Assembly: GCA_023246095.1 (NCBI GenBank)
Contig: JAHFJA010000002.1
Span: forward strand, 39,489 to 103,488
DNA length: 64,000 nucleotides
DNA from: a bacterium
GTDB lineage: Bacteria; Patescibacteriota; Patescibacteriia; JACQRZ01
Reading direction: 5' to 3'
In this document: positions 51,133-64,000 of the stretch, piece after piece
Layout of the letters: every line of letters begins with the position of its first letter
How positions within the stretch are numbered: the first letter of the stretch is position 1
Position numbers and translations under genes: made by a program
Notes under the pieces: model-generated
The model's database searches: none
Seen by the model: only the letters and a program-made list of their open reading frames with translations
Told to the model about the DNA's origin: nothing

Positions 51133-51154
51133 AGATACTGCCCCGCCGACAACG

Positions 51155-51188
51155 CAAAAAATCCCGCAACTTGAGTGCGGGATTTTTG
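51155..51188. terminator. Bidirectional terminator aaaaaatcccgca-acttgag-tgcgggattttt
   Basis: Perfect 12-bp stem between convergent genes. Confidence 0.6.
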
Positions 51189-51207
51189 ACACACTTTTTG
51201 CAATACC

Positions 51208-51564
51208 TTACTCCTTTATTGGGCTAAGAAGTTTCTTCAATGTCGGTATATCCTCCTTCAATGTGTCCCACAGTATTGGTAACTCAATGTCGTCGTAGTG
51301 ATGAATCAATTTATCTCGCATTCCTGCCATTTCTCTCCAAGGAATATCCGGATATTGTTTTTTCATCGACAATGAAATACGTTTTGCCGCTTCACCGATT
51401 ATTTCAATACGCCGAATAATAGCATCTTGTGTTTTAGTATCACCAGCGAAAGAAGTTTTCTTTACACCCTTAATATAACTTTCTATCGCATAGATAGAAT
51501 CGGCAATATGCTTAACGTATAACTGATCCCTCTTAGAAGAGTCGTTTTTTTTCTTTGTTGACAT
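51208..51564 (-). CDS. hepT: HepT-family (DUF86) toxin RNase
   Basis: Rx4HxY motif RDKLIHHY; 118 aa; overlaps the upstream MntA-like gene. Confidence 0.75.
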   Translation of the reverse strand: MSTKKKNDSSKRDQLYVKHIADSIYAIESYIKGVKKTSFAGDTKTQDAIIRRIEIIGEAAKRISLSMKKQYPDIPWREMAGMRDKLIHHYDDIELPILWDTLKEDIPTLKKLLSPIKE

Positions 51565-51823
51565 TTGAGCGCATGTGTTTACAAAGACTCTCTTCGGTTA
51601 TGAGATCCACTCTCTTACCAATGAGGTCCTCTATTTGAAATTGCAAACCGAGAAGTCCTAAAAGGGTAACTTTCTTATTCTTTTTGAATGTGACAAGAAG
51701 ATCAAGATCACTCGTTTTTTTTGCATCTCCTCGCGCGTACGAGCCAAATATATGAGCGCGAGAAACTCCCGATTTCTTTAAAATCGGTATTGTATTTGAA
51801 AATTGTTGTATAGCTTGTTCCAT
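51533..51823 (-). CDS. mntA: MntA-family minimal nucleotidyltransferase antitoxin
   Basis: The GS-hG motif block FGSYARGDAKKTSDLDLLV with acidic residues; 96 aa; upstream of and overlapping hepT. Confidence 0.75.
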   Translation of the reverse strand: MEQAIQQFSNTIPILKKSGVSRAHIFGSYARGDAKKTSDLDLLVTFKKNKKVTLLGLLGLQFQIEDLIGKRVDLITEESLCKHMRSNVNKEKKRLF

Positions 51824-52307
51824 ATACCCATACTACCTAAAATTGGATAAAAATACAATCGCCCCCCCCTGTTTACGTCTCGACTGAGCTGTTTTCTTAT
51901 CCACAAGTACAGCATTATTGCCAAAAATTTCTTCATGATATAGTGGCAATATTAAATATAACGTCACACTTTTATGACGGTTTATAAATGCGATTTGTGC
52001 TTGCAAGAGATATCTCACGCAGAAGACAATATTTACATTGGCCGAAAAATCTTGCGATGGGTGACTTTATGCACTGAGTGCGGTAAGCCGGCATTGGATT
52101 TTTTGGAATCAGTAGAACTAAAACTTGAAAAGAAGTCTTCCTTGTAACAGATGCACGGGAGTCATAGACTCGTATCCTTGAGGCATCATAATCGTATCAA
52201 AATGATACGATTCTATGACCAGGAATGTGTTTAGGCTGACGTGATAATTCACCCAAGAAGTCAGATGGCCTCTTGGATTTTCCATAAAAAAATATAACCG
52301 ATATTTT

Positions 52308-52340
52308 GAAATCCCACAAACCATAGTGCGGGATTTTTAA
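52308..52340 (-). terminator. Terminator-like hairpin of the same AAATCCC(G/A)CA...TGCGGGATTT family
   Basis: aaatcccaca-aaccatag-tgcgggattttt. Confidence 0.4.
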
Positions 52341-52364
52341 ATATAGAAAGGGGCACATTCGTAA

Positions 52365-52730
52365 CTACACATCATTCTTTATATATTGTACTGCCTCGCT
52401 TTTGGTGATTATTTCTTTATTACGAAGAAGTGTTGCAGTGTTAATTTTTATCTCGTTCTTTGTGTCTTCAATCTTATCCATCAAACGGTGCTCCATCTTT
52501 CCCATGTCTGCTCTCAGCAAACCTAAATCCTCTTTTGTAGCAAAATGCTCAATATCTTTCTTTGTGGCAAAATCACGAAGATCATCTTTTGTAGCAAAGT
52601 TTTCAAGGTCTTTCTTTGTCGCCATATTAGCAAATCCCTTTCCCACCATCAGAGCAAAATCGTCAAAACGAGCTTCGAGGGTTGTATTAAGAATCTGTGT
52701 AAATTCTTCTTTTGAAAGTGGGGTGTCCAT
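52365..52730 (-). CDS. Hypothetical protein with four tandem 9-aa repeats (ATKKDLENF / ATKDDLRDF / ATKKDIEHF / ATKEDLGLL)
   Basis: 27-nt periodic DNA repeat visible at ~52530-52640; ORF track. Confidence 0.5.
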   Translation of the reverse strand: MDTPLSKEEFTQILNTTLEARFDDFALMVGKGFANMATKKDLENFATKDDLRDFATKKDIEHFATKEDLGLLRADMGKMEHRLMDKIEDTKNEIKINTATLLRNKEIITKSEAVQYIKNDV

Positions 52731-52925
52731 ATAATGTTATTAATGGCACTAAGATATAAGAAACTATATCAAACCTTCAAAAAAACAACAACCGTTATAT
52801 TCGACGTACATTGTGCTATAATACATACATCTGACCCTTAACAAATTATTCTTAATTCATGAATTTATAACTATTATGTCAAAGATGCCCTTTAGGGTGC
52901 CAGGACCTATGCAGATACCTACTTA

Positions 52926-52952
52926 AAAATCCCGCATTCATGTGGGATTTTT
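52926..52952 (-). terminator. Terminator-like hairpin aaaaatcccgca-ttca-tgtgggattttt (same family)
   Basis: Read from the sequence; downstream of the 52983 gene. Confidence 0.4.
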
Positions 52953-52982: not shown

Positions 52983-53588
52983 TTATTTCTTAGTATAAGG
53001 ATTATTTTTTGAATATATGACTTGCTCAGGAGTTTGATTTAACAAAGTAGGATCTGTCGTATTGACTTGAATATAATCTCCTTTTTTGACATCCTCACGT
53101 TTTCCAATTGTCATAGTTATTTTTTTGTTTACATCAGAAACTGGTGTAACAAAGCTTGTTTGCTCATTTAAAGAAAAAGTATAAATTTTTCCACTAAGTG
53201 TCCCTGGGGTTGTTTGTATCTTCATATTGTTCTCGTACGCCCTCATTACCAAAGTTTTATCATTAACACTATCAACCTCTCCGACAACAGGCAATCCAGC
53301 AACGACAGATACTCTAGTTGCTGGTTGGGCTACTCTTGTTTTTTCCCCCAAGCCTAATAACTGTTTCATTGTAGTTGGGGTAGTGTTTTGTTCGTTCTTA
53401 GTTATCGGTTTACTAAGCTTTTCCAGATTGGAAATCTCTGCCATATTTGTCGGTTCGCTATCGATGCTCGTTTTATTGATTTGCAGTGTCAATCGAACTG
53501 TTAAAAACAATGATACCAGCGAAATGACACCGAATAAGCCAACGATTAGAAAAAATAAAGTCTGAGGTTTTTTTGAACTTATCATCAT
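52983..53588 (-). CDS. Hypothetical single-pass membrane protein (likely start MMISSKKPQ; ORF extends to 53639)
   Basis: ORF track; TM helix TLFFLIVGLFGVISLVSLFLTV. Confidence 0.45.
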   Translation of the reverse strand: MMISSKKPQTLFFLIVGLFGVISLVSLFLTVRLTLQINKTSIDSEPTNMAEISNLEKLSKPITKNEQNTTPTTMKQLLGLGEKTRVAQPATRVSVVAGLPVVGEVDSVNDKTLVMRAYENNMKIQTTPGTLSGKIYTFSLNEQTSFVTPVSDVNKKITMTIGKREDVKKGDYIQVNTTDPTLLNQTPEQVIYSKNNPYTKK

Positions 53589-53617: not shown

Positions 53618-56215
53618 TTAAAAATCTGAACCAATACAATCCTTGTCAAAATATATTCCACCAGGACTAAACAAATTACCATTTTCGTACCTAGCACTAC
53701 ACGTCATATATCGATACATCGATGGAAGACCCGAACCTACTGTTGCTGGGTGCATATCTATTTTTAATATACCGAGATCCATTTCAAGAGCTACTCCAAC
53801 AAATAAGTTTCGACCTACATATGTCTCATTAGCTGAAGACAAATCTCCACCAGAAACAATATCGCCATCAGCAACAATATTACGCCCAACAGTAAGATCT
53901 CGCCCCACATCGGTATCTCTACCTGAATGTAAGCGATCTCCACCTATTTCTCCTGTTACACCAATATTCCCTCCGTGAGTAAGGTCAGTTAAACTACCTA
54001 TTAAAGCTATATCTTTCCCGTTTGCTACATATCCAGCATCAAGAACTGCTTGAAGATCACCAGATCCCCCTGTCCCTGTACCCCCCGGCCAATCTGTTCT
54101 ACAAACACCACCGATACAGACATTTCCCTTGAAATTTGCAAGCCCCTCAAACGTGGCTTGCTCTCTAAACCAAGAAAAATCGTCAACTTGTAGTGCATTT
54201 TGATGCAGCCCTCCAATCATAGGTAGTGCCTCAATTTGTAATCCACCTTGAAGGTTAATTTTATTGTTCGTAACAGCCCCCAGGTCTGTAACTTGTTGCA
54301 ACGTGCCCACTGAACCGCTTCCTGACGGATATGTGATAACGTTTGTAATTGACGTACTATCATTGGTATCTCCAAGATTATCTTTGCCACACCCCCAACC
54401 AGTGCCATTATACTTGAGTACTTGCTGGCTGGAACAGGAAGGCAACTGCATAGGTGATGGCCAACCAATTCTGCAATCTGTTCCTATACAAACCGTTGGT
54501 GCCTTTAATTGCATATTTGACGTAATAGCACCCGTAGCCGTGATTATACCGCCTGATACAATCTGGCCAGTAGTAGTAACGGAACCGGCACTTAGTGTAC
54601 GGATCTGCATATCTTGAGTTGGTGCCTGATTGTTAATAGCAAGAACATCACCAAGACCTTGATTTCCTACCTTAAGAACAAGCCGGTCCGGTGACCAAGT
54701 ACTGATACATGTTGCTCCATTAAGACATATCGAGGGTGTAGTCACCGAGGTTGTTGCAGTAATCGCTCCTGCGGTTAACGCCCCACTACCCGCATTAATA
54801 CCAGCTCCGTTGGTGACAATACCCCCATTGGCCGACAAAAGTCCCGTAAACGTCCCCGTACCTCCGCTAATAGGACCAGTTCCAGCATTAATACCAGCTC
54901 CGTTGGTGACTACACCCCCATTAGCAGTTAAGAGTCCTGTGATAGTGGTGGCGCCTGTAACACCAAGTTTACCTTTTAGTGTCGTATCATTCGATACATC
55001 TAACGTTCCATTGATGGCGGTATTGCCCCCGATAGTCAAACGATTCCCTGCTACAGGCGGTGTTCCGATACCGACCAATCCATTTATTTGAAGATTCCCA
55101 TAACTACCGGAAGGACTCGTCCCGTTTACACTCAATAAATCCCCCGTTGATGCGCCCTCCAGAACACTCACTGCATTAACTCCCGTCCCCACTCCGATCT
55201 GGTACTTTCCTGTTTTGGAAGCAGTACCCGACTGTATCGTCCCATTCACATCAAGTGGTACTGCGGGGTTTGCTCTCCCAATACCCACAAGTCCGTTTAT
55301 CGCAACATTAGTATAAGCATTAGAACCCCCAATTGGCCCGTTGATGTTCAGTAAGCTTCCATCAGCCACGGAAGATTCTATTGCCGACTTACCTCCAATT
55401 TGAAATTTTCCTAGATTATTAGCCGTACTTGATTGCACTGTCCCGTTTACATCAAGCGCTGTCGCGGGACTAACATTCCCGATCCCCATCCTATTATTCA
55501 AAAGCGTAACAAACTTGTTTATAATCCCCCCATTTTTTATGTCCAAATTCCCTGCGGCTTCCATATTTCCGTCAGTGTCGACGCGAAACTTTTTAACAAA
55601 CCCTTTTTCAAACAACAGAAAATTCGGCGTAGTAAGCGGGTTACCTGTAGAGAACGTATTATTATGCACATTTCCAAACAAAAGATTTGTCCCTGCAGCC
55701 AAGATAGGACCCGGGCTAATAGGGCCCAGAGCAACATCAAACACGGTACCCAAAGTTGTCATACCCCCGATAGCGGTTGTCTCATCCCCATCTTGGTCCA
55801 GCACGACCCCGTGTGTCGTAAAGCGTCCCTTGTTCGTCACGTCTTGAAGTGAAGGACTGATGTTCAGCCAATCACTTCGACAATCAGGACTCGAGGCAGG
55901 TCCAAAACAAAGAGTGGAAACAACAAGCCTGCCCCCTGCACTACTTCCCAACACCATATCACCCAAAAATTTGGAAGCATCGGCGCTAATATCAAGAACA
56001 CTTTTTAACCCCCCAGGACCAGCACCCGTATCTGGTTGTCCGTAGGGAGGAAGCTGTACCGGCTCTTTAAACGCTGCCTGTGCAACCTGGTGACCCATGA
56101 ACACGAACAAGGCAACCGCGACCACCAAAAAAGGAAGCAGTACTTTTTTTGTAGTGGCTATCCCCTTCTTCGACTTTAGTTCTGATGATGTTGATATGTT
56201 CTTTATCTCTTTCAT
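53618..56215 (-). CDS. Giant (865 aa) secreted Gly/Thr/Asn-rich repeat protein, beta-helix / fibre-like
   Basis: N-terminal signal/TM LLPFLVVAVALFVFMGHQVAQA; repeated GIGxxxPxxxLDVNGT(V/I)QS units; two ~31-aa tandem repeats NGG(V/I)VTNGAGINAG(T/S)G. Confidence 0.6.
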   Translation of the reverse strand: MKEIKNISTSSELKSKKGIATTKKVLLPFLVVAVALFVFMGHQVAQAAFKEPVQLPPYGQPDTGAGPGGLKSVLDISADASKFLGDMVLGSSAGGRLVVSTLCFGPASSPDCRSDWLNISPSLQDVTNKGRFTTHGVVLDQDGDETTAIGGMTTLGTVFDVALGPISPGPILAAGTNLLFGNVHNNTFSTGNPLTTPNFLLFEKGFVKKFRVDTDGNMEAAGNLDIKNGGIINKFVTLLNNRMGIGNVSPATALDVNGTVQSSTANNLGKFQIGGKSAIESSVADGSLLNINGPIGGSNAYTNVAINGLVGIGRANPAVPLDVNGTIQSGTASKTGKYQIGVGTGVNAVSVLEGASTGDLLSVNGTSPSGSYGNLQINGLVGIGTPPVAGNRLTIGGNTAINGTLDVSNDTTLKGKLGVTGATTITGLLTANGGVVTNGAGINAGTGPISGGTGTFTGLLSANGGIVTNGAGINAGSGALTAGAITATTSVTTPSICLNGATCISTWSPDRLVLKVGNQGLGDVLAINNQAPTQDMQIRTLSAGSVTTTGQIVSGGIITATGAITSNMQLKAPTVCIGTDCRIGWPSPMQLPSCSSQQVLKYNGTGWGCGKDNLGDTNDSTSITNVITYPSGSGSVGTLQQVTDLGAVTNNKINLQGGLQIEALPMIGGLHQNALQVDDFSWFREQATFEGLANFKGNVCIGGVCRTDWPGGTGTGGSGDLQAVLDAGYVANGKDIALIGSLTDLTHGGNIGVTGEIGGDRLHSGRDTDVGRDLTVGRNIVADGDIVSGGDLSSANETYVGRNLFVGVALEMDLGILKIDMHPATVGSGLPSMYRYMTCSARYENGNLFSPGGIYFDKDCIGSDF

Positions 56216-56327: not shown

Positions 56328-57038
56328 TCATCTCAAAACCGATTGATAGTTCTTAAGCAAAAATACTGTTTCGGTTTTGAGATGCGTCTTGACCCACGCT
56401 TTATTTTTTTCATTCAAAAGCTCACCTAATCCTTGCAATATCTGTGCATCTTTCACTTGTTCGACAAGAGAAATACAGTCATCGATGTACTCTTTCAGGC
56501 TTTTTGTCGTCCACTTCGCCAACACCTCTCTGTCAATATCCCAGTTATTTTTTGCAAAGTACCACACATCGTAGATATCACGCATTGCGGTTTCGCTTCG
56601 CAAGGTCAACGCAGCAAGCTTGCTTGCGAATAGATATGGCCTTTTGGCAACGAACATTGAAATCCCCAAATACTCTTTTAGTTCATATTCCTCCTTGAGG
56701 TCAGGCACCACCCTTCTTGTACTTATCTCAATTTTAATATTGTGGTCAGTATCCCCGTAAGAAAGAAGACAAAAGATAGTATTCATTTTTATGTAACTGT
56801 CTTTGATAATGCCATATCGCTCTAAAATCGTTTTAATCCTCTCGAAGATTAATGTATAAGTATCTTGATCGCCACCAATCACATCAAAATCCAAATCAAC
56901 TGAAAATCGTGGCAACTCGTAAAAAAAATATGCACACGTACCCCCTTTAAAACCCAAAAATGGCGCAATTGACACATCAGCATATATGTCTCGCAAAATC
57001 CGTCCCATTATGAGTTGGTGTTTTTCTCTATTCAGCAT
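56328..57038 (-). CDS. abiEii: AbiEii/AbiGii-family nucleotidyltransferase toxin (DUF1814)
   Basis: GFKGGTCAYFFY...RFSVDLDFD motif (GG...S.DLDF of the AbiEii NTase). Confidence 0.75.
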   Translation of the reverse strand: MLNREKHQLIMGRILRDIYADVSIAPFLGFKGGTCAYFFYELPRFSVDLDFDVIGGDQDTYTLIFERIKTILERYGIIKDSYIKMNTIFCLLSYGDTDHNIKIEISTRRVVPDLKEEYELKEYLGISMFVAKRPYLFASKLAALTLRSETAMRDIYDVWYFAKNNWDIDREVLAKWTTKSLKEYIDDCISLVEQVKDAQILQGLGELLNEKNKAWVKTHLKTETVFLLKNYQSVLR

Positions 57039-57642
57039 ATTTTTTTTGATATCTCCTCAATCGTCTGACGAGCTGTTCGTTCCCATATAGCGAGACCAAA
57101 TCAAAACACTTATCCCAATTAACAGGACGAAGATTATCAAAATGGTAGTCGGGAAAAAGATATATCATATCCAAAAATGCTCGCTCTGCCGAGGCAATAC
57201 CATACGTGCCTTTGTTCTCTATCCCCATTCCATTAAACAACACAGTGTCTTTTAATGTTCTAAATATGATAGTTGTCGAATCGATAACCATTGTTTTCGA
57301 CCAGGGGCCGGCAACAAAAATTGCGTCATAATACTGAAACACCATACCTTCTTCTCGAAGCACGGATTCAAAACTGATATATGAAGGAGTATAGATACTC
57401 GTCGCGAGTTCTTTTGAATTATAATTCTTATCTTTTGCAAACACACCACGAGTAAGGCGGATTAAGTCTCCTTGTTTAACATAATATGATATCTTTGATT
57501 TCAGGTTATTTCGATTCGTTTCTCCCCATAATAAAGCTAAATCCTTGCTCGTAAGGATTGTTTTGGGGGACTGGTACAATATAGCAATCAAGTTATCCAT
57601 GACGATATGTTTGATGGAAGTACTATACACTCTTACTTCCAT
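57028..57642 (-). CDS. abiEi: AbiEi-family antitoxin / transcriptional regulator (possible start at 57600)
   Basis: LIRLTRGVF (RG.F/Y) and PSYISFESVL motifs shared with the paralog at 60993; overlaps the toxin start by 11 nt. Confidence 0.65.
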   Translation of the reverse strand: MEVRVYSTSIKHIVMDNLIAILYQSPKTILTSKDLALLWGETNRNNLKSKISYYVKQGDLIRLTRGVFAKDKNYNSKELATSIYTPSYISFESVLREEGMVFQYYDAIFVAGPWSKTMVIDSTTIIFRTLKDTVLFNGMGIENKGTYGIASAERAFLDMIYLFPDYHFDNLRPVNWDKCFDLVSLYGNEQLVRRLRRYQKKYAE

Positions 57643-57811
57643 TATACATTATTAGTTGCTCCCTGTCAACTACACGGATCAAAATTATTTTTAAGTCTAT
57701 AACTTAGAGTAAGTCAGTGTGAATAAGGTTAGTTCACTAGACTAGTTATGTACTAATTAAGGTAGTTCTCCAAAAAAATATACCTGTACTACCGTTCAAT
57801 CCGTAACAAAA

Positions 57812-58294
57812 CTATACGTTAAAATGATCCAGATATCCTTTTATGTTTAGGGTCGTTTCGTCAAGTATTATGTTTTCAACAAGGACTTTGAAGACCCACT
57901 GAGTAATCCCCCACGCCGAGAGGATGACGGCCAAACCGAGAAGTGCGTATTTAAGGATGTGTTGTGCTTTTTCTACATTGTCTTTTTCTCCATGCGCGGT
58001 CATCCAAAGAAAGCCTGCATAGAGGATAAGGGAGACGGAGAGAATAGCAAGAAAACCAAGAATGTATTTAAGTACATTTGCTATCAGTGTAATTGGTTCA
58101 AGCTTATTCTGTGGTAAGGTGGTACCTTTAGTGCCCGTAGTATTCTTGAACTCACCTCCTGTGAGTATATCGGACAGAGACACCGCATACGAGGAAATAG
58201 GCATTACGGTCACGACCATACTACCCAAAGTAAAGGTCAGCATACCAATGGCAATAAACGTGCGTGCTTTTTGTATTGATGAAAATATATTCAT
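57812..58294 (-). CDS. TrbC/VirB2-like (T4SS-type) pilin paralog 1
   Basis: N-terminal signal/TM; C-terminal motif LYAGFLWMTAHGEKDNVEKAQHILKYALLGLAVILSAWGI. Confidence 0.7.
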   Translation of the reverse strand: MNIFSSIQKARTFIAIGMLTFTLGSMVVTVMPISSYAVSLSDILTGGEFKNTTGTKGTTLPQNKLEPITLIANVLKYILGFLAILSVSLILYAGFLWMTAHGEKDNVEKAQHILKYALLGLAVILSAWGITQWVFKVLVENIILDETTLNIKGYLDHFNV

Positions 58295-58296
58295 AT

Positions 58297-58779
58297 CTAG
58301 GTACCCGTAACGGCTTTAGCGATTGTTAAAAGAACCCAGTAGGTCAGTCCCTGTGCCGCAATGATAATTACTAAACCAACGACTGCCGTCTGGAGGAGAT
58401 CTTGTGCTTTTTTTACCTTCTCTTTTTCACCCTGTGCCGTCATCCAGAGATATCCTGCATAAAGAGTGAGAATGAGAAATATTATGCCAAGAAACCCAAG
58501 AAATATTTGAATAACACTCCCAATAATCATACCTATTGAGTTGGTAGGTGCACCCGACGTAGCTCCACAGGTCTTCCCCCATGCACCACCCGCCGTTTGG
58601 AGATAATCTAATATTCCTTTGTCAGCACAATCAGAGGTGGTAACAGCAAATCCATTAATACCCGCAAGAGCGAGGGTGAATACCATCGCACTCATGCCAA
58701 TATATCGAACCGCATGACTCATGCGCTCCGCGACGGACTTGGCTAAAATAGTATTTTCTTTTGTTACCTTCTTTTTCAT
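58297..58779 (-). CDS. TrbC/VirB2-like pilin paralog 2
   Basis: Motif LYAGYLWMTAQGEKEKVKKAQDLLQTAVVGLVIIIAAQGL. Confidence 0.7.
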   Translation of the reverse strand: MKKKVTKENTILAKSVAERMSHAVRYIGMSAMVFTLALAGINGFAVTTSDCADKGILDYLQTAGGAWGKTCGATSGAPTNSIGMIIGSVIQIFLGFLGIIFLILTLYAGYLWMTAQGEKEKVKKAQDLLQTAVVGLVIIIAAQGLTYWVLLTIAKAVTGT

Positions 58780-58812
58780 ATCGAAGATATCGCAGATGCC
58801 TTTCGGGTATTA

Positions 58813-59232
58813 TTACTTCACTCCCGTGATGGGTTTAAGGCTTTCCACCACGAAATAGGCAATGGCGTAGGAGGACAAAACGATGATAAGCCCAATCACT
58901 GCCGTCGTGATCATTCCGCGCGCTTTTTCTACCTTTGTCTTATCCCCTTCTGCGGTCATCCACTTGGTGCCGGCATAGAGTAAGATAATCAACAGCACGA
59001 TACCCATTATACCGAGAATCACTTTTATCACTGCGCCAATAATAAGCGGGACTGAGTCGGCGGTTGCCGTCACTTTTGCTGCTGTTTTAGCTTGGTCAAA
59101 TACAGAATTAATGTCATTCTTTGCTGCTATCTGAGTACGGGGAATATTGGTTGTCAGTGTTGTCGTCGCAAACGCACCACTTCCTGCCAACATACTTACC
59201 GAAACAATAATTGCAAAAAAAATCTTTTTCAT
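58813..59232 (-). CDS. TrbC/VirB2-like pilin paralog 3 (start at MKKIFFAII; ORF extends to 59388)
   Basis: Motif LYAGTKWMTAEGDKTKVEKARGMITTAVIGLIIVLSSYAI. Confidence 0.7.
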   Translation of the reverse strand: MKKIFFAIIVSVSMLAGSGAFATTTLTTNIPRTQIAAKNDINSVFDQAKTAAKVTATADSVPLIIGAVIKVILGIMGIVLLIILLYAGTKWMTAEGDKTKVEKARGMITTAVIGLIIVLSSYAIAYFVVESLKPITGVK

Positions 59233-59234
59233 AC

Positions 59235-59672
59235 CTAGTGAGCAGCGGTTATTGGCCCTACTAGTCGAGATAAGACGAAAGCAGTGATCGCGTAAGCAGA
59301 CAGCACAATGATAAGACCCAGTACCGCATGAAATATAAGACCGCGTGCTTTTCCTACCTTTGTCGTATCCCCTTCCGCCACCATCCATAGGATACCGCCA
59401 TACACGACAAGGATCAGAAATACCAAACCAAGAACAGATAAAATGATCTGGATGGAAACACCGATTATTGCGGGAAGTGTTTGTTCATCAAGATTATTAA
59501 AGCCAAAAAAACCTTTGAACCCTTCCGCGCTTTTATTCAAACTATCTAGCGGTGGGGTTGAAAGAGGAACAGCAAATACAGGGATTGGAATCCCTGGCGC
59601 AAAAACAAGAACGCCTGCTATCAGAGTTGATAGCAGGGCGCCGATGCCGACTTTGAAGAAAGTCTTGTTCAT
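59235..59672 (-). CDS. TrbC/VirB2-like pilin paralog 4
   Basis: Motif VYGGILWMVAEGDTTKVGKARGLIFHAVLGLIIVLSAYAI. Confidence 0.7.
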   Translation of the reverse strand: MNKTFFKVGIGALLSTLIAGVLVFAPGIPIPVFAVPLSTPPLDSLNKSAEGFKGFFGFNNLDEQTLPAIIGVSIQIILSVLGLVFLILVVYGGILWMVAEGDTTKVGKARGLIFHAVLGLIIVLSAYAITAFVLSRLVGPITAAH

Positions 59673-59696
59673 GGGAGTAAAATCTATGTGCGCAGC

Positions 59697-60113
59697 TTAT
59701 TTAATGATAGTCGCAGGAACACTAAACGCGTATTGTGCAATGCCCCATGCAGAGAGAATAATAACAAGCCCAATAACTCCCTGTATCAACATTTTTTGTG
59801 CGGATTCAACTTGTTCATCTTTACCTCCTGCGGTCATCCATTTGAAACCTGCAATCAAAATGATAATCACGGCGATAATACCGAGAAACCCAAGAACAAA
59901 ATTAATAACCGATACCACTGTCTCGTAGGGGGCAATAGCTGTCGAATCATGACCTGGCAATGGTGCATTTTTTGAATCGTTTAATCCATATCCAGTCGTT
60001 GGGACAACCGGCGCCGCCGCATTCACCATCGACACAGGCAAAAGTCCAAAACCTACCGTCAATACACTCGCGACAAGGAACGTTCGTACTACGTTTTTGA
60101 GAGTTGTTTTCAT
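59697..60113 (-). CDS. TrbC/VirB2-like pilin paralog 5
   Basis: Motif LIAGFKWMTAGGKDEQVESAQKMLIQGVIGLVIILSAWGI. Confidence 0.7.
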   Translation of the reverse strand: MKTTLKNVVRTFLVASVLTVGFGLLPVSMVNAAAPVVPTTGYGLNDSKNAPLPGHDSTAIAPYETVVSVINFVLGFLGIIAVIIILIAGFKWMTAGGKDEQVESAQKMLIQGVIGLVIILSAWGIAQYAFSVPATIIK

Positions 60114-60214
60114 ACAACGTACAAGGAAATTAAAAATAAATTCTTATTAAGTACTTATAGTATAGCAGACTGTTTTAAGAGCGGAAGTGAATTACTTTTT
60201 ACTACTTCATCTAA

Positions 60215-60991
60215 TCATAGTGGTGCCTGCGTAATGAACTCACGAAATAGTTCAACTTTCCGAACATCACTCGCATCGAACAAAAAAGGTTGTATGTCTC
60301 GTCCTAGTTCTTTAAAATCCAGTCCAGCCGTTGATTCCAACATTCTCGCGCGGAGCCCTTCCGGATCCCCTACCCCAATCTTTGCCTGAAGATACTCATA
60401 GTTCGGTTTGGTAAACGAGGAAAGGAAGACAATGTCATAAAAATCACGACCTTTCGCGCGCTTGCGATTTATCGCCGCAAACATCTTCTGAGAAAGTAAT
60501 ATGTCAGGAGGGGTAACGAAAATCTCCGAAAATACGTCAAACTTGTTAAGAATTTTCTTGTCTGGTTGATAAGAGACGCCATGAGCCAGACTGTCAACTT
60601 GTATGAGAATCTTTTCTTCCTGATATGGTGACAGTTCATTCACAAATAGTATATCAGGCAACCGCACTCGACACCGATAGGCGTCTTTACCAACAGTATC
60701 GATTTCAACGCGCAAACCTTGCCGCTCCAGTTCAACTTGGATGATGTGCGCAAGCTCTTCAAACTCGCCGTCTTCCAGATTGAAATTATCAAAGTCTAAA
60801 TCTTCCGAAAATCGGGTATTCCCATATATAATTCGTAACGCAGTACCACCCAAGAACGCCAGTTTAGCGGCATGCGGGGAAGCAAAAATAATTTCAAGGA
60901 TCTTATACTGAAGGTACTCTCGAAGAATACCCCGTTTGAATGGACGTAACGACTCCGGATATTGTTGTTCGATTTGCTGCAAGGTCAACAT
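60215..60991 (-). CDS. abiEii: AbiEii/AbiGii-family nucleotidyltransferase toxin (DUF1814)
   Basis: Canonical FLGGTALRIIYGNTRFSEDLDFD motif. Confidence 0.85.
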   Translation of the reverse strand: MLTLQQIEQQYPESLRPFKRGILREYLQYKILEIIFASPHAAKLAFLGGTALRIIYGNTRFSEDLDFDNFNLEDGEFEELAHIIQVELERQGLRVEIDTVGKDAYRCRVRLPDILFVNELSPYQEEKILIQVDSLAHGVSYQPDKKILNKFDVFSEIFVTPPDILLSQKMFAAINRKRAKGRDFYDIVFLSSFTKPNYEYLQAKIGVGDPEGLRARMLESTAGLDFKELGRDIQPFLFDASDVRKVELFREFITQAPL

Positions 60992-60992
60992 A

Positions 60993-61613
60993 TCATTTTG
61001 ATTGTTTAATCAACGAGATAAGATCTTCTGTTCTCCTTAGAAACCCCCTACTTGTATACACCATGGCATATTTCCGAAATTTTTTTATGTCGGCTTTTTC
61101 TAAAAACTCTTCACTATTGAACCTCCATTCGTAAAAATCTTCAGGCTTAATAATATTTGGGTGGAGATATACATAATCGAGCACTGCTTTTTCAATCTCC
61201 GCAATTTTGTACGTATATCCATTCTTTGTTTCCAGTCGATACCCAAAAAAATACTCCGCTTTAATTTGTTGGTATGAAAATTCCGTAACCGGTGACTTAA
61301 AACTGGCCGTCTTCTTACTGGACGCCGAGGTAATCGAATATACCCCCTCCGGAATCAAACCATAATACGACAACGCCATTTCAAAAGATACGTACGATGG
61401 CGGGTATAACCGATTTGCAATCAAAAACAATACCTCTTCGCTCAAAGGAAGATCGGCAAACATGTAATAACCACGACGCAGCTTCTTGATATATCCCTTA
61501 TTTTGCCACTCATTAAGCTGATGACGATAAAAAGTTGGATCGATCTTGCGAATATCCACCAAGGAAAAAACAGCAAAGTCTTTCAACTCTCCTTGTAATT
61601 GTTGGTACTTCAT
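60993..61613 (-). CDS. abiEi: AbiEi-family antitoxin (start at MKYQQLQ; ORF extends to 61679)
   Basis: KKLRRGYYMF and PSYVSFEMALSYYGLIP motifs; 1-nt gap to the downstream toxin. Confidence 0.7.
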   Translation of the reverse strand: MKYQQLQGELKDFAVFSLVDIRKIDPTFYRHQLNEWQNKGYIKKLRRGYYMFADLPLSEEVLFLIANRLYPPSYVSFEMALSYYGLIPEGVYSITSASSKKTASFKSPVTEFSYQQIKAEYFFGYRLETKNGYTYKIAEIEKAVLDYVYLHPNIIKPEDFYEWRFNSEEFLEKADIKKFRKYAMVYTSRGFLRRTEDLISLIKQSK

Positions 61614-61711
61614 AGATTTCCGAAACGTACTATATTTAGTACTCTTTGGAATTATAACAACAGAGAAAGAATCGCGCAAACGATATCATGTCTACACATC
61701 GGTGTGTTACT

Positions 61712-62068
61712 TTATTTCCCCAACAAAGCAGTGAGGAGGAATCTGACGATTGCGGCGCTGGCGAAGATGACCGCCATACCGATTGCGGCCCATATCATGG
61801 TATCCATGCCTTTTGTTACTTTTCCTTTATCCCCTGCCGAGGTCATCCAGAGAATACCGCCATAAACAAAGACCACCAGTGCGATTGAGCCGGACAGGCC
61901 GAGAAATGCATTGATAACCAAGCCAATAAATTCCGCGGGGCTATTCACTGCGAGAGGGTTTTCAAGAGTCACGTTACCAGCAGCGGCGTATGCGAAGTGA
62001 GTGGTAAGGAGGGTGATGCCGGCTATCGCTGTTGATAGGGTGACGGTACTATTTTTGGGGAGGGGCAT
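61712..62068 (-). CDS. TrbC/VirB2-like pilin paralog 6 (short, 118 aa)
   Basis: Motif VYGGILWMTSAGDKGKVTKGMDTMIWAAIGMAVIFASAAI. Confidence 0.7.
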   Translation of the reverse strand: MPLPKNSTVTLSTAIAGITLLTTHFAYAAAGNVTLENPLAVNSPAEFIGLVINAFLGLSGSIALVVFVYGGILWMTSAGDKGKVTKGMDTMIWAAIGMAVIFASAAIVRFLLTALLGK

Positions 62069-62086
62069 ATTTCTTGCTAATTCGAT

Positions 62087-63418
62087 TTAATAGATTATTG
62101 CGTTGGGACAGTCTACTTTCCATCTTTCATCCATGCCAATAAATTCTGTGGTTCCACAGGATGTCGCATTAGGACAGTAGAACTTATTATGAATTGTTAC
62201 GTCCAAAAACGCCTTATTTTGACAGTCAGTAGATGAGATAGACTCGCTGGTATGAAATGCAGTCCCTGATCCATTGGTATTATACGATACACAGCATACC
62301 CCATTTGAAATAACTACAGGAGCGCCACATTTCCCTGCGGTACACTGTCCTGTCTTACATTGTGCAGGGTCTGTACATGCTTCATTATCGTTCTTTTTTA
62401 ACTCACAAGTACCATTCGCAGGGTCGTTTGGGTTAGTACAGTACTGAGTCCCCGCACATTGCGCTTGCATTGGTGGAACCTCACATTTTTGACCCGTTAA
62501 TTTTATCGGCAACACACAGCAACACTTGTTTCCTGTAATAAGATATGACGATACAAACACTCGATTCTTGTTTGTCTGATTACTCGCGACCGCGTCACAA
62601 ACAGCGCTTCCAAAACCACAATCACTGTTAGCTATAAAATGATCCGTACTAGTACAAGACTCATCTTTACAATGATAGCAATACGGTGCTGCGCCCACCC
62701 CTGTACTAAACTCAAATTTTCCCGCACCACACATTTGCAATGCTTTGGCCGAGGCCTCGGCGTACGTTACATAACAGCCACCCTGACTTTGCGCTTGAGT
62801 TTGAGCTAGTTGTATCTCCGGCACCACCCCAATCGTTCCAAAGTGTATCGGCGTACAAATATCTGCTTGATATGACCATTTGCTAGTACCATTAAAAATT
62901 CCTCCCAGACGACCTGCAAGTGTCTTGTCGCCCGTTTCTTTTTTAATCAAACTAGTCATAACAAAGTTTACCGCCATCCAGCTGGTAAACACAATCACGA
63001 GCCCAATCGCGGCGTTGACCATCGTCTCTGTCCCTTTTGTCACTTTCCCTTTATCCCCCGCCGAAGTTAAATACTGAAAGCCCCCCAACACCACCATCAA
63101 AAGCGCGACACTGCCGCTTATGCCCAGAATAAACGTTGCGATATTGATAGCAAGCTGAATAAACGCATCCAAGGTATAATTACAACACAACATATCGCAC
63201 ATCGGGATGATCTTGCTTATAAGCTCACCTGATTGCGGTGCACACATTGCCGGTCCCCCTGCACATCCCCCAGGAACAAACGACGCTGTTGATTTACCCG
63301 CCAATGTCGAATCTGCCCACACCAGCGTAGCAGTAGCGCCGATGCTGGCGATAACCATAACGCCAAAAAGAAATGACAGTATGGCGAGGCGGTATTTTTT
63401 TGGATGACGAAGTTTCAT
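62087..63418 (-). CDS. TrbC/VirB2-like pilin module fused to a ~300-aa Cys-rich C-terminal ectodomain
   Basis: Motif LGGFQYLTSAGDKGKVTKGTETMVNAAIGLVIVFTSWMAV, followed by a domain with >35 Cys (CCCVLP, CTAGKCG, CCVSY and others). Confidence 0.65.
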   Translation of the reverse strand: MKLRHPKKYRLAILSFLFGVMVIASIGATATLVWADSTLAGKSTASFVPGGCAGGPAMCAPQSGELISKIIPMCDMLCCNYTLDAFIQLAINIATFILGISGSVALLMVVLGGFQYLTSAGDKGKVTKGTETMVNAAIGLVIVFTSWMAVNFVMTSLIKKETGDKTLAGRLGGIFNGTSKWSYQADICTPIHFGTIGVVPEIQLAQTQAQSQGGCYVTYAEASAKALQMCGAGKFEFSTGVGAAPYCYHCKDESCTSTDHFIANSDCGFGSAVCDAVASNQTNKNRVFVSSYLITGNKCCCVLPIKLTGQKCEVPPMQAQCAGTQYCTNPNDPANGTCELKKNDNEACTDPAQCKTGQCTAGKCGAPVVISNGVCCVSYNTNGSGTAFHTSESISSTDCQNKAFLDVTIHNKFYCPNATSCGTTEFIGMDERWKVDCPNAIIY

Positions 63419-64000
63419 TGCGAGTAGCTTTGAGAGATAGTCTGCTGGGCTCTATAGATGAGACCTGACATAACACTACGCTCGTCTGAGATATCTCCCC
63501 CTTTACTAGTCAACGCCGTGTCGATCATATCCAAAAACGCTTTTTCTGCTGACGACGCATCGAGGCCATGATACCAGTTATCCGCGATGAGAAGTTGCGA
63601 TGCAAACGGCCGTGTCACGTCATTTTTTAACTGTTCATCAATCATCGCGCGGAGCGCAGTCGGTGCTTGAGTTTTTTCCAAATAGGATTTTACATTCTCC
63701 TGTGCTGTGGCAAACATGATAAAATCCCATGCCATGTCTTGATATTTTGATTTATTGGATACTCCCTCTGCCCAGTAATTGGCGTATGTTTTCTTAAGTT
63801 CTGGTTGTTTTTGCGGTAACGGAGCGACTTCAAACTGCAAACCCGGTGCTTTGGTCTTGATTTGGGCTATGTGATACGAATACCCGAACATCATCGCAGC
63901 ACGTTCTTGGGAAAAACTCTCTACACTGTTTGGTTGGTCTTGATTCCATGTATACACATCTGCTTTGGTTACCCACGCAAAATCAGTATAGAAACGCAGT
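63415..64000 (-). CDS. 3' portion of a gene running off the window end; C-terminal region resembles an ABC-transporter extracellular solute-binding protein
   Basis: Reading frame open to the window edge; an AMMFGYSYHIAQIKT-type segment; identification weak. Confidence 0.3.
   Translation of the reverse strand, partial: LRFYTDFAWVTKADVYTWNQDQPNSVESFSQERAAMMFGYSYHIAQIKTKAPGLQFEVAPLPQKQPELKKTYANYWAEGVSNKSKYQDMAWDFIMFATAQENVKSYLEKTQAPTALRAMIDEQLKNDVTRPFASQLLIADNWYHGLDASSAEKAFLDMIDTALTSKGGDISDERSVMSGLIYRAQQTISQSYSQ

What the first reader, a model, noticed from the sequence alone, without database searches (positions are those of the whole stretch)
51150..63420. A 12-kb accessory island: HepT/MntA, repeat protein, giant fibre protein, two AbiE modules and the pilin array, all on one strand between the ileS operon and a transporter gene
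Every gene from 51208 to the window end is on the minus strand. There is an unusual concentration of toxin-antitoxin or abortive-infection modules (three in 12 kb), repeat-containing proteins and surface-structure genes. Housekeeping genes resume only upstream, in the ruvA-ileS operon. This looks like a defence or surface-variation island. The uncharacterised genes in it (52365, 52983, 53618) are candidates for novel defence or host-interaction functions by guilt by association.
Basis: inference. Interest (0 to 1): 0.55.

Follow-up and report, generated by a model that had tools for sequence, protein, structure and literature searches.

The report
Pilin-adhesin locus with inserted toxin cassettes
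This stretch of an ultra-small (Patescibacteria) bacterial genome is not one imported 12-kb island: it is a surface-pilus gene cluster shared with related genomes, into which three small mobile toxin-antitoxin cassettes have landed separately, so it is a clear example of known biology and not a new system.

Summary
It comprises HepT/MntA, a 9-residue-repeat protein, an 865-aa glycine-rich protein, two AbiEi/AbiEii pairs and seven VirB2-like (PF18895) pilin genes, all on the minus strand.

The block is not a single accessory island. Three related Patescibacteria lineages keep the same backbone: SPP-SBP-pilin fusion-pil6..pil1-large surface protein-small membrane proteins-ileS-ruvA. The pilins are one-to-one orthologues in the same order. 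None of the three toxin-antitoxin modules is present in the relatives wherever the matching position could be seen.

GC, GC3, codon usage and tetranucleotide profiles show no island-wide deviation. No integrase or tRNA gene lies in or next to the block, and no repeats flank it as a whole.

The toxin-antitoxin modules are three separate intergenic insertions. AbiE_1 and AbiE_2 each bring a promoter of their own. The AbiE_2 slot is bounded by AGTAAYNCAC repeats and holds a different defence-candidate gene (PDC-S13, Bro-N) in a sister genome. The same AbiE cassette sits in unrelated places in other Patescibacteria.

The three uncharacterised genes belong to the conserved locus, not to defence:
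- p865 is a surface protein with a conserved N-terminus and a swapped distal part, always directly after the pilins in relatives.
- The product of ORF 52983 (218 aa as listed, about 200 aa from the likely start; called p218 here) is a membrane-anchored beta-barrel paralogue of the 207-aa protein encoded next to ileS (p207).
- rep121 is a MATKDD-type alpha/beta coiled coil.

Verdict: new member of a known kind, modest interest.

The parts
63415..64000 (-). 3' part of a solute-binding-protein gene (484 aa in full; runs off the window). Its stop codon overlaps the start of the pilin-fusion gene by 4 nt.
   Evidence: PF13416 2e-09 and PF01547. Full gene, with an SPP (PF06550) gene upstream, seen on L095. 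SPP-SBP-pilin fusion is conserved in L085, L086 and L087.
62087..63418 (-). pil443: a VirB2-like pilin (residues about 1-165) fused to a Cys-rich C-terminal extension (30 Cys), which varies between lineages.
   Evidence: PF18895 5.1e-11. Only 4 homologues were found, of 378-547 aa, conserved mainly in the pilin part. Cys count.
61712..62068 (-). pil6, a VirB2/TrbC-like pilin.
   Evidence: PF18895 4.4e-11 and PF04956 1.2e-07. Orthologues at 76-80% identity in L085 and L086.
61702..61711 (-). Left boundary repeat AGTAACACAC of the AbiE_2 cassette slot.
   Evidence: It is one of only two AGTAAYNCAC matches in the 64 kb. Homology with L086 ends exactly here.
61618..61657 (-). AbiE_2 promoter -10 box (TATAAT) and palindromic operator TTCCAAAGAGTAC-N8-GTACGTTTCGGAA.
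   Evidence: Conserved in the same cassette at three unrelated loci, L090, L092 and L093. Coordinates.
60993..61613 (-). AbiEi_2 antitoxin/regulator (206 aa from the ATG at 61613).
   Evidence: PADLOC AbiEi 7.9e-59. Called as 206 aa on other assemblies.
60215..60991 (-). AbiEii_2 nucleotidyltransferase toxin.
   Evidence: PF08843 6.5e-20 and PADLOC 4e-96. Motifs GGT..RFSEDLD and KM.A..RD.YD are present. 6271 homologues at E<=1e-20.
60187..60196 (-). Right boundary repeat AGTAATTCAC of the AbiE_2 slot.
   Evidence: The empty site in L087 has a single copy.
60114..60198 (-). Conserved pil5 promoter and 5' leader (TGCTATACT -10 region), retained downstream of the insertion.
   Evidence: Aligns with L086 and L087 up to the insertion boundary.
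57812..60113 (-). Tandem pilins pil5 (59697-60113), pil4 (59235-59672), pil3 (58813-59232), pil2 (58297-58779) and pil1 (57812-58294).
   Evidence: PF18895 hits. Paralogues are 21-34% identical to pil1. One-to-one orthologues lie in the same order in L084/L086 and L087.
57641..57669 (-). AbiE_1 promoter, a perfect TTGACA-17-TATAAT.
   Evidence: The only 12-of-12 match in 50300-64000.
56328..57600 (-). AbiE_1 cassette: AbiEi_1 (57028-57600; the ORF is open from 57642) and AbiEii_1 (56328-57038), overlapping by 11 nt.
   Evidence: PADLOC 7e-56 and 1.2e-71. Only 35% and 28% identical to AbiE_2, so it is a separate acquisition. Absent between pil1 and the large protein in L002/L084, L082/L083 and L087.
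53618..56215 (-). p865: a large secreted or anchored surface protein. It has an N-terminal hydrophobic helix and a conserved module of about 120-230 aa (AAFxEPxxLPPxGQP; TTHG..DQDGDETTAIGG). The distal part is Gly/Thr/Asn-rich with fibre-like repeats and four C-x(4-8)-C-x3-W loops.
   Evidence: No family match. 47 hits at E<=1e-3 among 1.84 billion representatives. The N-module is shared with the large protein that follows the pilins in L002 (42%), L082 (41%) and L087 (47%), while the distal parts differ. Own TGGTATACT promoter at 56268-56278.
52983..53585 (-). p218/p200: N-terminal transmembrane helix, disordered linker and a small all-beta domain. It is a paralogue of p207.
   Evidence: 27-28% identical to p207 and to the 2-3 such genes between the large protein and ileS in L002 (alignments; 24%). 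AF2 gives pLDDT 75-91 for the beta domain. Only generic OB/beta-barrel fold matches, none at E<=1e-3.
52365..52730 (-). rep121: a small protein with no hydrophobic N-terminal segment evident in its sequence (not tested with a predictor) and four nonad repeats ([MF]ATK[KDE]D[LI]..). It is a MATKDD-type beta-layer alpha/beta coiled coil.
   Evidence: PDB 5APZ (Tcar0761 construct) E=2.1e-08, 6H9L 1.3e-04. Consensus taken from PMC4786415. A 127-aa homologue sits at the same position in L082.
51159..52338 (-). HepT/MntA insertion segment, bounded by two copies of the hairpin terminator AAAAATCCCGCAC..GYGGGATTT (52309-52338 and 51159-51187). It contains a 485-bp spacer with the 57-aa CxxC ORF (51974-52147, + strand), MntA (51533-51823) and HepT (51208-51564).
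   Evidence: In L082 the rep121-like gene and p207 are separated by about 60 bp holding a single terminator. No HepT/MntA in L002, L082 or L087.
50509..51132 (+). p207: a membrane-anchored beta-domain protein, the conserved neighbour of ileS.
   Evidence: Orthologues at 69% (L002), 64% (L082) and 32% (L087) in the same position and orientation relative to ileS.

Best explanation
The region is a vertically inherited surface locus of a Patescibacteria (CPR) genome. It runs SPP-SBP-pilin fusion-six VirB2-like pilin paralogues-large modular surface protein-small membrane-anchored beta-domain proteins, and abuts ileS-ruvA.

The pilins and the large protein are the variable, exposed parts. Pilin orthologues are 48-80% identical, against 82-84% for IleRS and RuvA. 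The large protein keeps its N-terminal anchor module and swaps its distal part. This fits a host-contact structure (inferred, not shown).

Three small, self-contained toxin-antitoxin cassettes have been inserted into this backbone independently, each between transcription units:
- AbiE_1, between pil1 and the large-protein gene.
- AbiE_2, between pil6 and pil5.
- HepT/MntA, between rep121 and p207.

AbiE_1 and AbiE_2 carry their own promoters, and AbiE_2 also carries its own operator. For HepT/MntA a promoter was seen only by eye. The host promoters for pil5 and p865 remain intact. The cassettes most likely act as ordinary selfish or abortive-infection modules and are not functionally coupled to the pilus genes (inferred).
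For: Shown, backbone synteny without TA modules:
- L087 (GCA_030688365.1) has SPP-SBP-pilin fusion-pil6-pil6'-pil5-pil4-pil3-pil2-pil1-495-aa protein with the p865 N-module-152 aa-p207-like-ileS-ruvA-femAB.
- GCA_964357385.1, reconstructed from L086+L084+L002, has the same order with best-hit orthologues in register.
- L085+L082 from SRR34141493 agree.

Shown, no island signature:
- Reference gene GC is 0.434 +/- 0.030. Only HepT, MntA, rep121 and p218 (0.34-0.37), both AbiE_1 genes (0.37-0.385) and AbiEi_2 (0.376) are low. Similar values occur elsewhere in the window.
- Tetranucleotide z-scores run from -1.7 to +2.6 inside the block, against a maximum of +3.1 outside.
- tRNA genes occur only at 17.8-18.0 kb. 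No repeats flank the whole block.

Shown, cassette autonomy:
- The two AbiE pairs are only 28% and 35% identical to each other.
- AbiE_1 has a perfect sigma-70-type promoter.
- AbiE_2, from its -10 box to its stop codon, recurs at about 70% nucleotide and 78-80% amino-acid identity in three other places: between adk and map in a ribosomal-protein operon (L093), beside a transposase and R-M genes (L092), and among HTH genes (L090). All copies share a palindromic operator.
- AbiEii_2 is 69-75% identical to proteins of Komeili-, Peregrini- and Kerfeldbacteria, whose IleRS is only 47-52% identical to this one.

Shown, hotspot:
- Homology with L086 breaks exactly at the AGTAAYNCAC repeats. The sister genome carries a Bro-N gene there, matching PADLOC PDC-S13 at 1.2e-118.

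Literature:
- VirB2 arrays of 2-11 pilins, tandem or interrupted by a non-pilin gene, with mean paralogue identity of 25%, are described in 383 Patescibacteria assemblies (PMC12102498).
- A pilin series is essential in Southlakia (PMC10633639).
Against: - The syntenic relatives form a narrow clade (RuvA 70-82%, SBP 78-89%). In more distant Patescibacteria with IleRS around 50% identical, neither ruvA (in most) nor pilins lie next to ileS. The backbone could therefore still have been acquired once by the ancestor of this clade.
- The relatives are fragmented MAG contigs. One genome had to be stitched from three contigs.
- No relative covers the pil6-pil5 slot in the SRR34141493 lineage.
- No VirB4, VirB6 or other T4SS machinery was found in the window, so the link between these pilins and a secretion apparatus is not shown here.
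- Function of the pilins and of the large protein in host contact is inferred only. The AF2 model of p865 failed (pLDDT 46.6).
- The insertion-versus-loss polarity rests on parsimony over three lineages.
Confidence: 0.8

Rival explanations
1. One reading: the whole 12-kb block is one horizontally acquired defence or surface-variation island inserted between the ileS operon and the transporter gene.
For: Three TA/Abi modules lie within 12 kb, and none was found among 20 other ORFs tested. Several genes match no family. GC is low at 51-54 kb and 56-58 kb. Distant relatives lack the block next to ileS.
Against: The backbone is syntenic, with ordered orthologues, in three related lineages lacking the TA modules. 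The pilin-fusion gene overlaps the SBP gene by 4 nt in the window and in L085, and is directly adjacent in L087. There is no block-wide compositional signal. No integrase or tRNA gene lies in or next to the block, and there are no flanking repeats. The low-GC patches coincide mainly with individual cassettes and small genes.
Confidence: 0.05
2. The TA modules are ancestral to the locus and were deleted in the relatives, not inserted in this lineage.
For: TA modules are easily lost. Only three related lineages were available. The AbiEii_2 gene has host-like GC (0.438).
Against: This needs three or more independent precise losses per module. Every relative that covers a given site lacks the module there. 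In the AbiE_2 slot the sister genome has a different cargo bounded by the same repeats. The identical cassette type is found at unrelated loci in other lineages. HepT/MntA, both AbiE_1 genes and AbiEi_2 have low GC.
Confidence: 0.1
3. The TA or defence cassettes are functionally tied to the pilus locus. For example, they might protect against phages that use the pilus or fibre as receptor, or they might stabilise a locus prone to recombination. In that case their position would be selected, not incidental.
For: Two different defence-type cargos occupy the same pil6/pil5 slot in two genomes. Three modules cluster in this one locus. [quoted passage not shown]
Against: Relatives keep the locus without any cassette in the parts that could be seen. 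The same AbiE cassette sits in a ribosomal-protein operon and next to a transposase elsewhere, so it shows no preference for pilin loci. AbiE_1 and AbiE_2 have promoters of their own.
Confidence: 0.12

Closest known systems
VirB2-like pilin arrays of Patescibacteria (PMC12102498, 2025; essential pilin series of Ca. Southlakia epibionticum, PMC10633639)
   Same: Seven PF18895/PF04956-type pilin genes lie in one orientation. Paralogues are highly diverged (21-34% to pil1). The array is interrupted by non-pilin genes. The host is a Patescibacterium.
   Different: No virB4 or other T4SS gene was recognised among the window ORFs scanned. The first pilin is fused to a 280-aa Cys-rich domain. The array is translationally coupled to an SBP gene. 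In all four lineages examined it is followed by a large surface protein with a conserved N-module. The interruptions are two-gene TA cassettes.
AbiE type IV toxin-antitoxin / abortive infection system (AbiEi wHTH antitoxin + AbiEii GTP-specific nucleotidyltransferase; from my own knowledge of the Dy et al. 2014 and Hampton et al. 2018 descriptions)
   Same: The arrangement is bicistronic with the antitoxin first. The AbiEii motifs are present. AbiE_2 has an inverted-repeat operator between the -10 box and the start codon, as in the autoregulated S. agalactiae system.
   Different: Two divergent copies lie 2.6 kb apart. Nothing here shows phage defence or toxicity.
HepT/MntA type VII toxin-antitoxin (HEPN RNase + MNT adenylyltransferase)
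   Same: RX4HXY in HepT, GSX10DXD in MntA, a 32-nt overlap, and the antitoxin gene upstream.
   Different: Scores fall below NCBIfam equivalog cut-offs (46-47 bits against 60), so this is a divergent member. MntA also matches the PADLOC candidate PDC-S09.
MATKDD beta-layer alpha/beta coiled coils (Tcar0761, PDB 5APZ; PMC4786415)
   Same: Four consecutive nonads fit [aliphatic]-A-T-K-[polar]-[DE] and are followed by heptad-like sequence. It is a stand-alone small protein without an endonuclease domain.
   Different: Only four repeats, against 14 in Tcar0761. The first residue is F in three of the four repeats. Function is unknown in both.
Defence hotspots or islands of bacterial genomes
   Same: One conserved intergenic slot carries different defence-type cargo in related genomes.
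   Different: The scale is one to two genes, not a multi-system island. No integrase or mobile-element backbone is present.
Modular phage tail-fibre-like or adhesin proteins
   Same: p865 has GIGxxxPxxxLxVxG-type repeats shared with proteins that end in an S74-like chaperone-type C-terminal sequence (by eye; P0029). It also has a conserved proximal module with swapped distal domains.
   Different: No S74 domain, no phage genes nearby, an N-terminal membrane helix, and no usable structure model.

Membership tests
VirB2/T4SS_pilin (PF18895, PF04956) | Profile match at or above the curated cut-off | tested here: met
   Six of seven genes score 27.9-43.1 bits against a 26.6 cut-off; pil4 scores 25.0.
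VirB2/T4SS_pilin (PF18895, PF04956) | Small protein with an N-terminal signal or hydrophobic segment and two hydrophobic helices joined by a short charged loop | tested here: met
   Alignment A1 shows LGFLGI..LYAGFLWMTAxGD-KxKVEKAQ-..AVIGLxIILSAWGI. Hydropathy peaks for pil443 at about residues 9-35, 89-115 and 132-158.
VirB2/T4SS_pilin (PF18895, PF04956) | Encoded with T4SS machinery (VirB4, VirB6, VirB3...) | tested here: not met
   No such domain was found in the large ORFs of the 64-kb window or in the flanks of relatives. The rest of the genome was not available. The published survey also finds many arrays away from virB4.
VirB2/T4SS_pilin (PF18895, PF04956) | Assembly into an extracellular pilus | not testable with these tools
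   Needs microscopy or proteomics.
Patescibacteria VirB2 array (as defined in PMC12102498) | [quoted passage not shown] | tested here: met
   Seven genes. The gaps are the two-gene AbiE_2 cassette (one slot) and intergenic spacers. Identity is 21-34%. Definition.
AbiE (type IV TA) | AbiEii nucleotidyltransferase profile and motifs; AbiEi profile | tested here: met
   PF08843 3.8e-20 and 6.5e-20. PADLOC AbiEii 1.2e-71 and 4e-96; AbiEi 7e-56 and 7.9e-59. Motifs confirmed.
AbiE (type IV TA) | Bicistronic operon, antitoxin first, with an inverted-repeat operator for autoregulation | tested here: met
   The gene pairs overlap by 11 nt or are 1 nt apart. The AbiE_2 palindrome lies at 61618-61657 and is conserved in four cassettes. 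For AbiE_1 only the promoter was identified.
AbiE (type IV TA) | Toxicity, neutralisation and abortive infection | not testable with these tools
   Experimental.
HepT/MntA (type VII TA) | HEPN RX4HXY and MNT GSX10DXD motifs; adjacent overlapping genes | tested here: met
   RDKLIHHY at residue 83; GSYARGDAKKTSDLD at residue 27; 32-nt overlap. NCBIfam equivalog scores are below the cut-off.
Genomic (accessory) island | Block absent from, or differently placed in, related genomes | tested here: not met
   The backbone is present in the same place and order in three lineages.
Genomic (accessory) island | Composition or codon usage deviates over the block | tested here: not met
   Only a few small genes are 2-3 sd low in GC.
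Genomic (accessory) island | Integrase or transposase, tRNA target, flanking direct repeats | tested here: not met
   None found.
Defence hotspot | Same conserved slot, different defence cargo in related genomes | tested here: met
   The pil6/pil5 slot holds AbiE_2 here, PDC-S13 (Bro-N, 1.2e-118) in L086, and nothing in L087. Only three genomes were compared.
MATKDD alpha/beta coiled coil | Repeated [aliphatic]-A-T-K-[polar]-[DE] at nonad spacing within coiled-coil sequence | tested here: met
   MATKKDLEN / FATKDDLRD / FATKKDIEH / FATKEDLGL. PDB 5APZ E=2.1e-08.
MATKDD alpha/beta coiled coil | Trimeric fibre with beta-layers | not testable with these tools
   Needs a structure or a multimer prediction.

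The most novel reading that the evidence does not exclude
The conserved unit SPP-SBP-pilin fusion-pilin paralogues-large protein may encode a Patescibacteria host-contact organelle. In this reading the large protein is the adhesin that the published surveys could not find. It has a fixed N-terminal module, always lies directly after the last pilin, and has a distal part swapped between lineages. The adjacent presenilin-type SPP would process the pilins. The AGTAAYNCAC-bounded slot inside the array would be a site-specific docking point for defence cassettes in genomes that lack an obvious integrase.
Probability: 0.15. Interest if true: 0.6.

Novelty: new member of a known kind. Interest (0 to 1): 0.3.

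Why it matters
The result corrects a plausible but wrong island call. It shows that gene clustering and unknown genes beside toxin-antitoxin modules are not evidence of a defence function.

It gives a well-resolved example of how small TA/Abi cassettes spread in reduced Patescibacteria genomes. They arrive as one- or two-gene units, land between transcription units, and can even land inside conserved operons.

It also yields two leads for people studying epibiotic Patescibacteria:
- A large, modular surface protein genetically linked to a VirB2-like pilin array in one clade.
- A small slot inside that array that exchanges defence genes.

None of this changes current understanding of the families involved.

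Tried and rejected
- p865 homologue search by word index found only itself and one repeat match. The exhaustive HMMER search gave 47 weak, mostly repeat-driven hits.
- Pfam scans of those hits were uninformative.
- The AF2 model of p865, built on a 41-row alignment, was poor (pLDDT 46.6), so I ran no fold search on it.
- PDB sequence searches for p865 and pil443 found nothing significant.
- A metagenome scan with pil443 found nothing. The second scan, with the N-module alignment, found one 3-kb contig, which proved useful as the bridge L084.
- The context of the more distant N-module protein P0030 has no pilins. The pilin and large-protein linkage therefore cannot be generalised beyond the clade.
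The two-sequence model gave a confident small beta domain but only generic OB/beta-barrel matches, none at E<=1e-3. The profile hit to MreC (E=0.0035) is too weak to use.
- Nucleotide breakpoints of the AbiE_1 insertion could not be defined, because pil1 and the large gene are too diverged.
- I considered and rejected a recent tandem duplication of the pilins, because orthologues are in register across lineages.
- I also rejected duplication as the origin of the second AbiE pair, because the two pairs are only 28-35% identical.

Full report
OBSERVATION.

All of the following are on the minus strand:
- HepT (51208-51564; PF01934, 9.8e-29) and MntA (51533-51823; PF01909, 4e-17).
- A 121-aa repeat protein, rep121 (52365-52730).
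- A 200-218-aa protein, p218 (52983-53585/53639).
- An 865-aa Gly/Thr/Asn-rich protein, p865 (53618-56215).
- AbiEii_1/AbiEi_1 (56328-57600; PADLOC 1.2e-71 and 7e-56).
- Five tandem PF18895 pilins (57812-60113).
- AbiEii_2/AbiEi_2 (60215-61613; PADLOC 4e-96 and 7.9e-59).
- A sixth pilin (61712-62068) and a 443-aa pilin fusion (62087-63418).
- The 3' part of a solute-binding-protein (SBP) gene.

Catalytic and signature motifs are intact: RX4HXY in HepT, GSX10DXD in MntA, and GGT..R.S.DLD plus K.xA..RD.YD in both AbiEii proteins. Twenty other ORFs of the window gave no TA or defence match, so the three modules really are locally concentrated.

The same arrangement appears on independent assemblies of the same strain (L001 100% identical; L095; an ENA contig). 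It is therefore not a mis-assembly.

Four points qualify the description:
- A 57-aa CxxC..CxxC ORF lies on the + strand at 51974-52147.
- The minus-strand run extends back to 30.4 kb, and GC skew is negative throughout. Strand uniformity is therefore not a property of the block.
- The pilin-fusion ATG overlaps the SBP stop codon by 4 nt, so 63420 is not a boundary.
- p207 (+ strand, 50509-51132) lies between HepT and ileS.

ORGANISM.

IleRS relatives at 47-53% identity are Komeili-, Falkow-, Magasanik-, Kerfeld- and Uhrbacteria and other Patescibacteria. One MAG has IleRS at 84%. The window therefore comes from a Patescibacteria (CPR) genome. This is an inference from best hits.

IS IT AN ISLAND?

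Composition says no.
- Genes outside the block have GC 0.434 +/- 0.030 and GC3 0.402 +/- 0.045.
- Inside, only HepT, MntA, rep121 and p218 (0.34-0.37), both AbiE_1 genes (0.37-0.385) and AbiEi_2 (0.376) are low. Comparable values occur at 26.0, 30.1 and 35.4 kb.
- Tetranucleotide distance of 3-kb windows ranges from z = -1.7 to +2.6 in the block. The peak falls on the repeat-rich p865 gene. The maximum outside is +3.1.
- The only tRNA genes are at 17.8-18.0 kb. No integrase or transposase domain is present, and no long repeats flank the block.

Synteny says no for the backbone.
- The 84%-IleRS relative (GCA_964357385.1) was reconstructed from three overlapping or adjacent contigs, L086, L084 and L002. 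L084 overlaps L002 at 100% identity.
- Its order is: response regulator-SPP-SBP (89%)-pilin fusion-pil6 (80%)-[Bro-N gene]-pil5 (65%)-pil4 (70-79%)-pil3 (65%)-pil2 (64-78%)-pil1 (48%)-1031-aa protein-three small membrane proteins including the p207 orthologue (69%)-ileS-ruvA-femAB-RNase T-Mur ligase.
- A second lineage (SRR34141493; L085 and L082) shows SBP-pilin fusion-pil6 on one contig. The other contig shows pil2-pil1-713-aa p865 homologue (41%)-179 aa-rep121-like-p207 (64%).
- A third, more distant genome (GCA_030688365.1, L087) carries the entire block on one contig. Its order is SPP-SBP (78%)-pilin fusion-pil6-pil6'-pil5-pil4-pil3-pil2-pil1-495-aa protein with the p865 N-module (47% over 165 aa)-152 aa-p207-like-ileS-ruvA (70%)-femAB.
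- None of these carries HepT/MntA or an AbiE pair at the positions that could be seen.

Beyond the clade, the ileS neighbourhood is different. An older acquisition by the clade ancestor therefore cannot be excluded.

THE THREE CASSETTES.

AbiE_1 lies between pil1 and p865.
- In the three relatives the large gene follows pil1 after 20-90 bp.
- AbiE_1 brings the only perfect TTGACA-17-TATAAT promoter in the region (57669-57641).
- p865 keeps a TGGTATACT promoter that is also seen in L082.

AbiE_2 lies between pil6 and pil5.
- Alignment with L086 shows homology ending at AGTAACACAC (61702-61711) and resuming at AGTAATTCAC (60187-60196). These are the only two AGTAAYNCAC matches in the 64 kb.
- Between the same repeats, L086 has an 841-bp segment that is essentially one ORF. 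It is a Bro-N protein matching the PADLOC defence candidate PDC-S13 at 1.2e-118.
- L087 has a single repeat copy and no cargo.
- The roughly 85-nt pil5 promoter and leader downstream is conserved in all three genomes.
- The repeat pattern was derived from these sites, so its statistics are circular. The independent evidence is the coincidence with the homology breakpoints and with the cargo exchange.

HepT/MntA lies between two copies of one hairpin terminator.
- The segment also holds a 485-bp spacer that contains the small + strand ORF.
- The terminator is AAAAATCCCGCAC..GYGGGATTT, at 52309-52338 and 51159-51187. A third copy follows p218.
- In L082 the rep121-like gene and p207 are separated by about 60 bp holding a single terminator.

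The two AbiE pairs are only 28% and 35% identical to each other and hit different PADLOC sub-models, so they are separate acquisitions.

AbiEii_2 has 6271 homologues at E<=1e-20.
- Proteins 69-80% identical occur in Komeili-, Peregrini-, Kerfeld- and Parcubacteria, whose IleRS is only about 47-52% identical to this one.
- The nearest cassettes (206-aa AbiEi plus 258/259-aa AbiEii, about 70% nucleotide identity from the -10 box to the stop codon) sit in three unrelated contexts. These are between adk and map in a ribosomal-protein operon (L093), beside a Transposase_mut gene and R-M genes (L092), and among HTH genes (L090).
- All share the palindrome TTCCAAAGAGTAC-N8-GTACnTTTnGGAA between the -10 box and the ATG.
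- This matches the known autoregulated AbiE operator architecture (my own knowledge of the S. agalactiae system). It shows a compact, promiscuous two-gene unit.

THE UNCHARACTERISED GENES.

p865:
- Among 1.84 billion representatives, only 47 proteins reach E<=1e-3 and only one is a real homologue over a long stretch (P0003).
- What is conserved is the N-terminal module: a hydrophobic helix, AAFxEPxxLPPxGQP, a C..DC...W loop and TTHG..D.DGDETT.IGG.
- This module is shared by the large protein that follows the last pilin in all three related lineages, while the distal parts differ completely. They are fibre-like GIG..P..L.V.G repeats in the window and L082, and Big_13 or other modules in L002 and L087.
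- A more distant N-module protein (P0030) is not next to pilins.
- The AF2 model was unusable.
- Best reading: a membrane-anchored or secreted surface fibre or adhesin, genetically linked to the pilin array, with exchangeable distal specificity. This is inferred.

p218:
- It is 27-28% identical to p207 and to the two or three such genes between the large gene and ileS in L002, and aligns with those in L082 and L087.
- The model shows a transmembrane helix, a disordered linker and a seven-stranded beta domain (pLDDT 75-91). Only generic OB/beta-barrel matches were found.
- It is a locus-resident paralogue family, not a defence candidate.

rep121:
- It has four nonads fitting the beta-layer consensus [aliphatic]-A-T-K-[polar]-[DE]. 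It hits the crystallised Tcar0761 alpha/beta coiled coil (5APZ, 2.1e-08) and related entries, including one from a Giovannonibacterium.
- A repeat-homologous 127-aa gene sits at the same position in L082.
- The fold type is known. The function is not.

COMPARISON WITH WHAT IS KNOWN.

VirB2-like pilin arrays of 2-11 genes, in tandem or interrupted by a non-pilin gene, with about 25% paralogue identity, were catalogued in 383 Patescibacteria assemblies. They were suggested to aid adaptation to different hosts (PMC12102498). A pilin series is essential in Ca. Southlakia (PMC10633639). The array here fits that description. No T4SS machinery was recognised among the window ORFs scanned or in the flanks of relatives.

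AbiE, HepT/MntA, defence hotspots and MATKDD coiled coils are all established.

Three things are specific to this locus:
- The clade-wide linkage SPP-SBP-pilin fusion-pilins-modular large protein.
- The use of the array's intergenic sites by TA or defence cassettes.
- The repeat-bounded exchange slot.

VERDICT.

The island interpretation is only partly supported.

The most likely account (confidence about 0.8) is a vertically inherited, fast-evolving surface locus carrying three independently inserted, self-contained TA cassettes.

Novelty: new member of a known kind. Interest: 0.3.

The most novel reading not excluded is a pilus-associated adhesin organelle with a site-specific defence-cassette slot. 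I give it a probability of about 0.15.

Noticed in passing
window 61702-61711 and 60187-60196; L086:12078-12090 and 12932-12943; L087 about 5475-5485: The imperfect 10-nt direct repeats AGTAAYNCAC bound the AbiE_2 cassette exactly. In a sister genome they bound a different cargo, a Bro-N / PDC-S13 gene. The empty site has one copy. This could be a cassette docking site or a target duplication.
   Followed up: partly
window 51159-51187, 52309-52338, 52925-52951: Three copies of one hairpin terminator (AAAAATCCCGCA..TGCGGGATTTTT) occur only in this 1.8-kb stretch of the window. They follow HepT (shared with p207), rep121 and p218, as if each small gene unit came with the same terminator.
   Followed up: partly
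window 51974-52147 (+): A 57-aa ORF with CxxC-N23-CxxC (zinc-ribbon-like) lies on the opposite strand, in the 485-bp spacer upstream of MntA. It was called as a gene on the Logan contig. It has no significant family match.
   Followed up: partly
L093:5368-6777 (GCA_030674435.1): An AbiEi/AbiEii cassette 78% identical to AbiE_2 is inserted between adk and map, inside the conserved ribosomal-protein/secY operon of another Patescibacterium.
   Followed up: partly
L087:10811-13675 versus window 47461-50376: IleRS of the syntenic relative GCA_030688365.1 is only 44% identical to the window's. The adjacent RuvA is 70% identical and SBP 78%. This suggests replacement of ileS by a xenologue in one of the lineages.
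   Followed up: no
L095:305-2657; L085, L086, L087 upstream of the pilin fusion: A presenilin-type signal-peptide peptidase gene (PF06550) and an SBP gene with no ABC permease or ATPase in the flanks seen always precede the pilin array. The SBP and pilin-fusion genes overlap by 4 nt in the window and L085. The 'transporter gene' may therefore belong to the pilin operon and not to a transporter.
   Followed up: partly
window 62087-63418: The first pilin of the array is fused to a C-terminal domain of about 280 aa with 30 cysteines. Its length and sequence differ between lineages (378-547 aa). No family or PDB match.
   Followed up: partly
window 53618-56215 (residues 103, 497, 576, 700): A short C-x(4-8)-C-x3-W loop motif recurs four times along p865. 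It also occurs in the large proteins of the relatives.
   Followed up: no
window 452-4528 and 5918-8593 (-): Two very large ORFs (1358 and 891 aa) at the other end of the window have no Pfam match. The 3-6 kb region shows the largest tetranucleotide deviation in the window (z = 3.1).
   Followed up: no
record titles of L002, L003, L006 and others: Several MAGs whose IleRS and gene content are clearly Patescibacteria are titled 'uncultured Gammaproteobacteria bacterium' in the public records. These are probably mislabelled.
   Followed up: no
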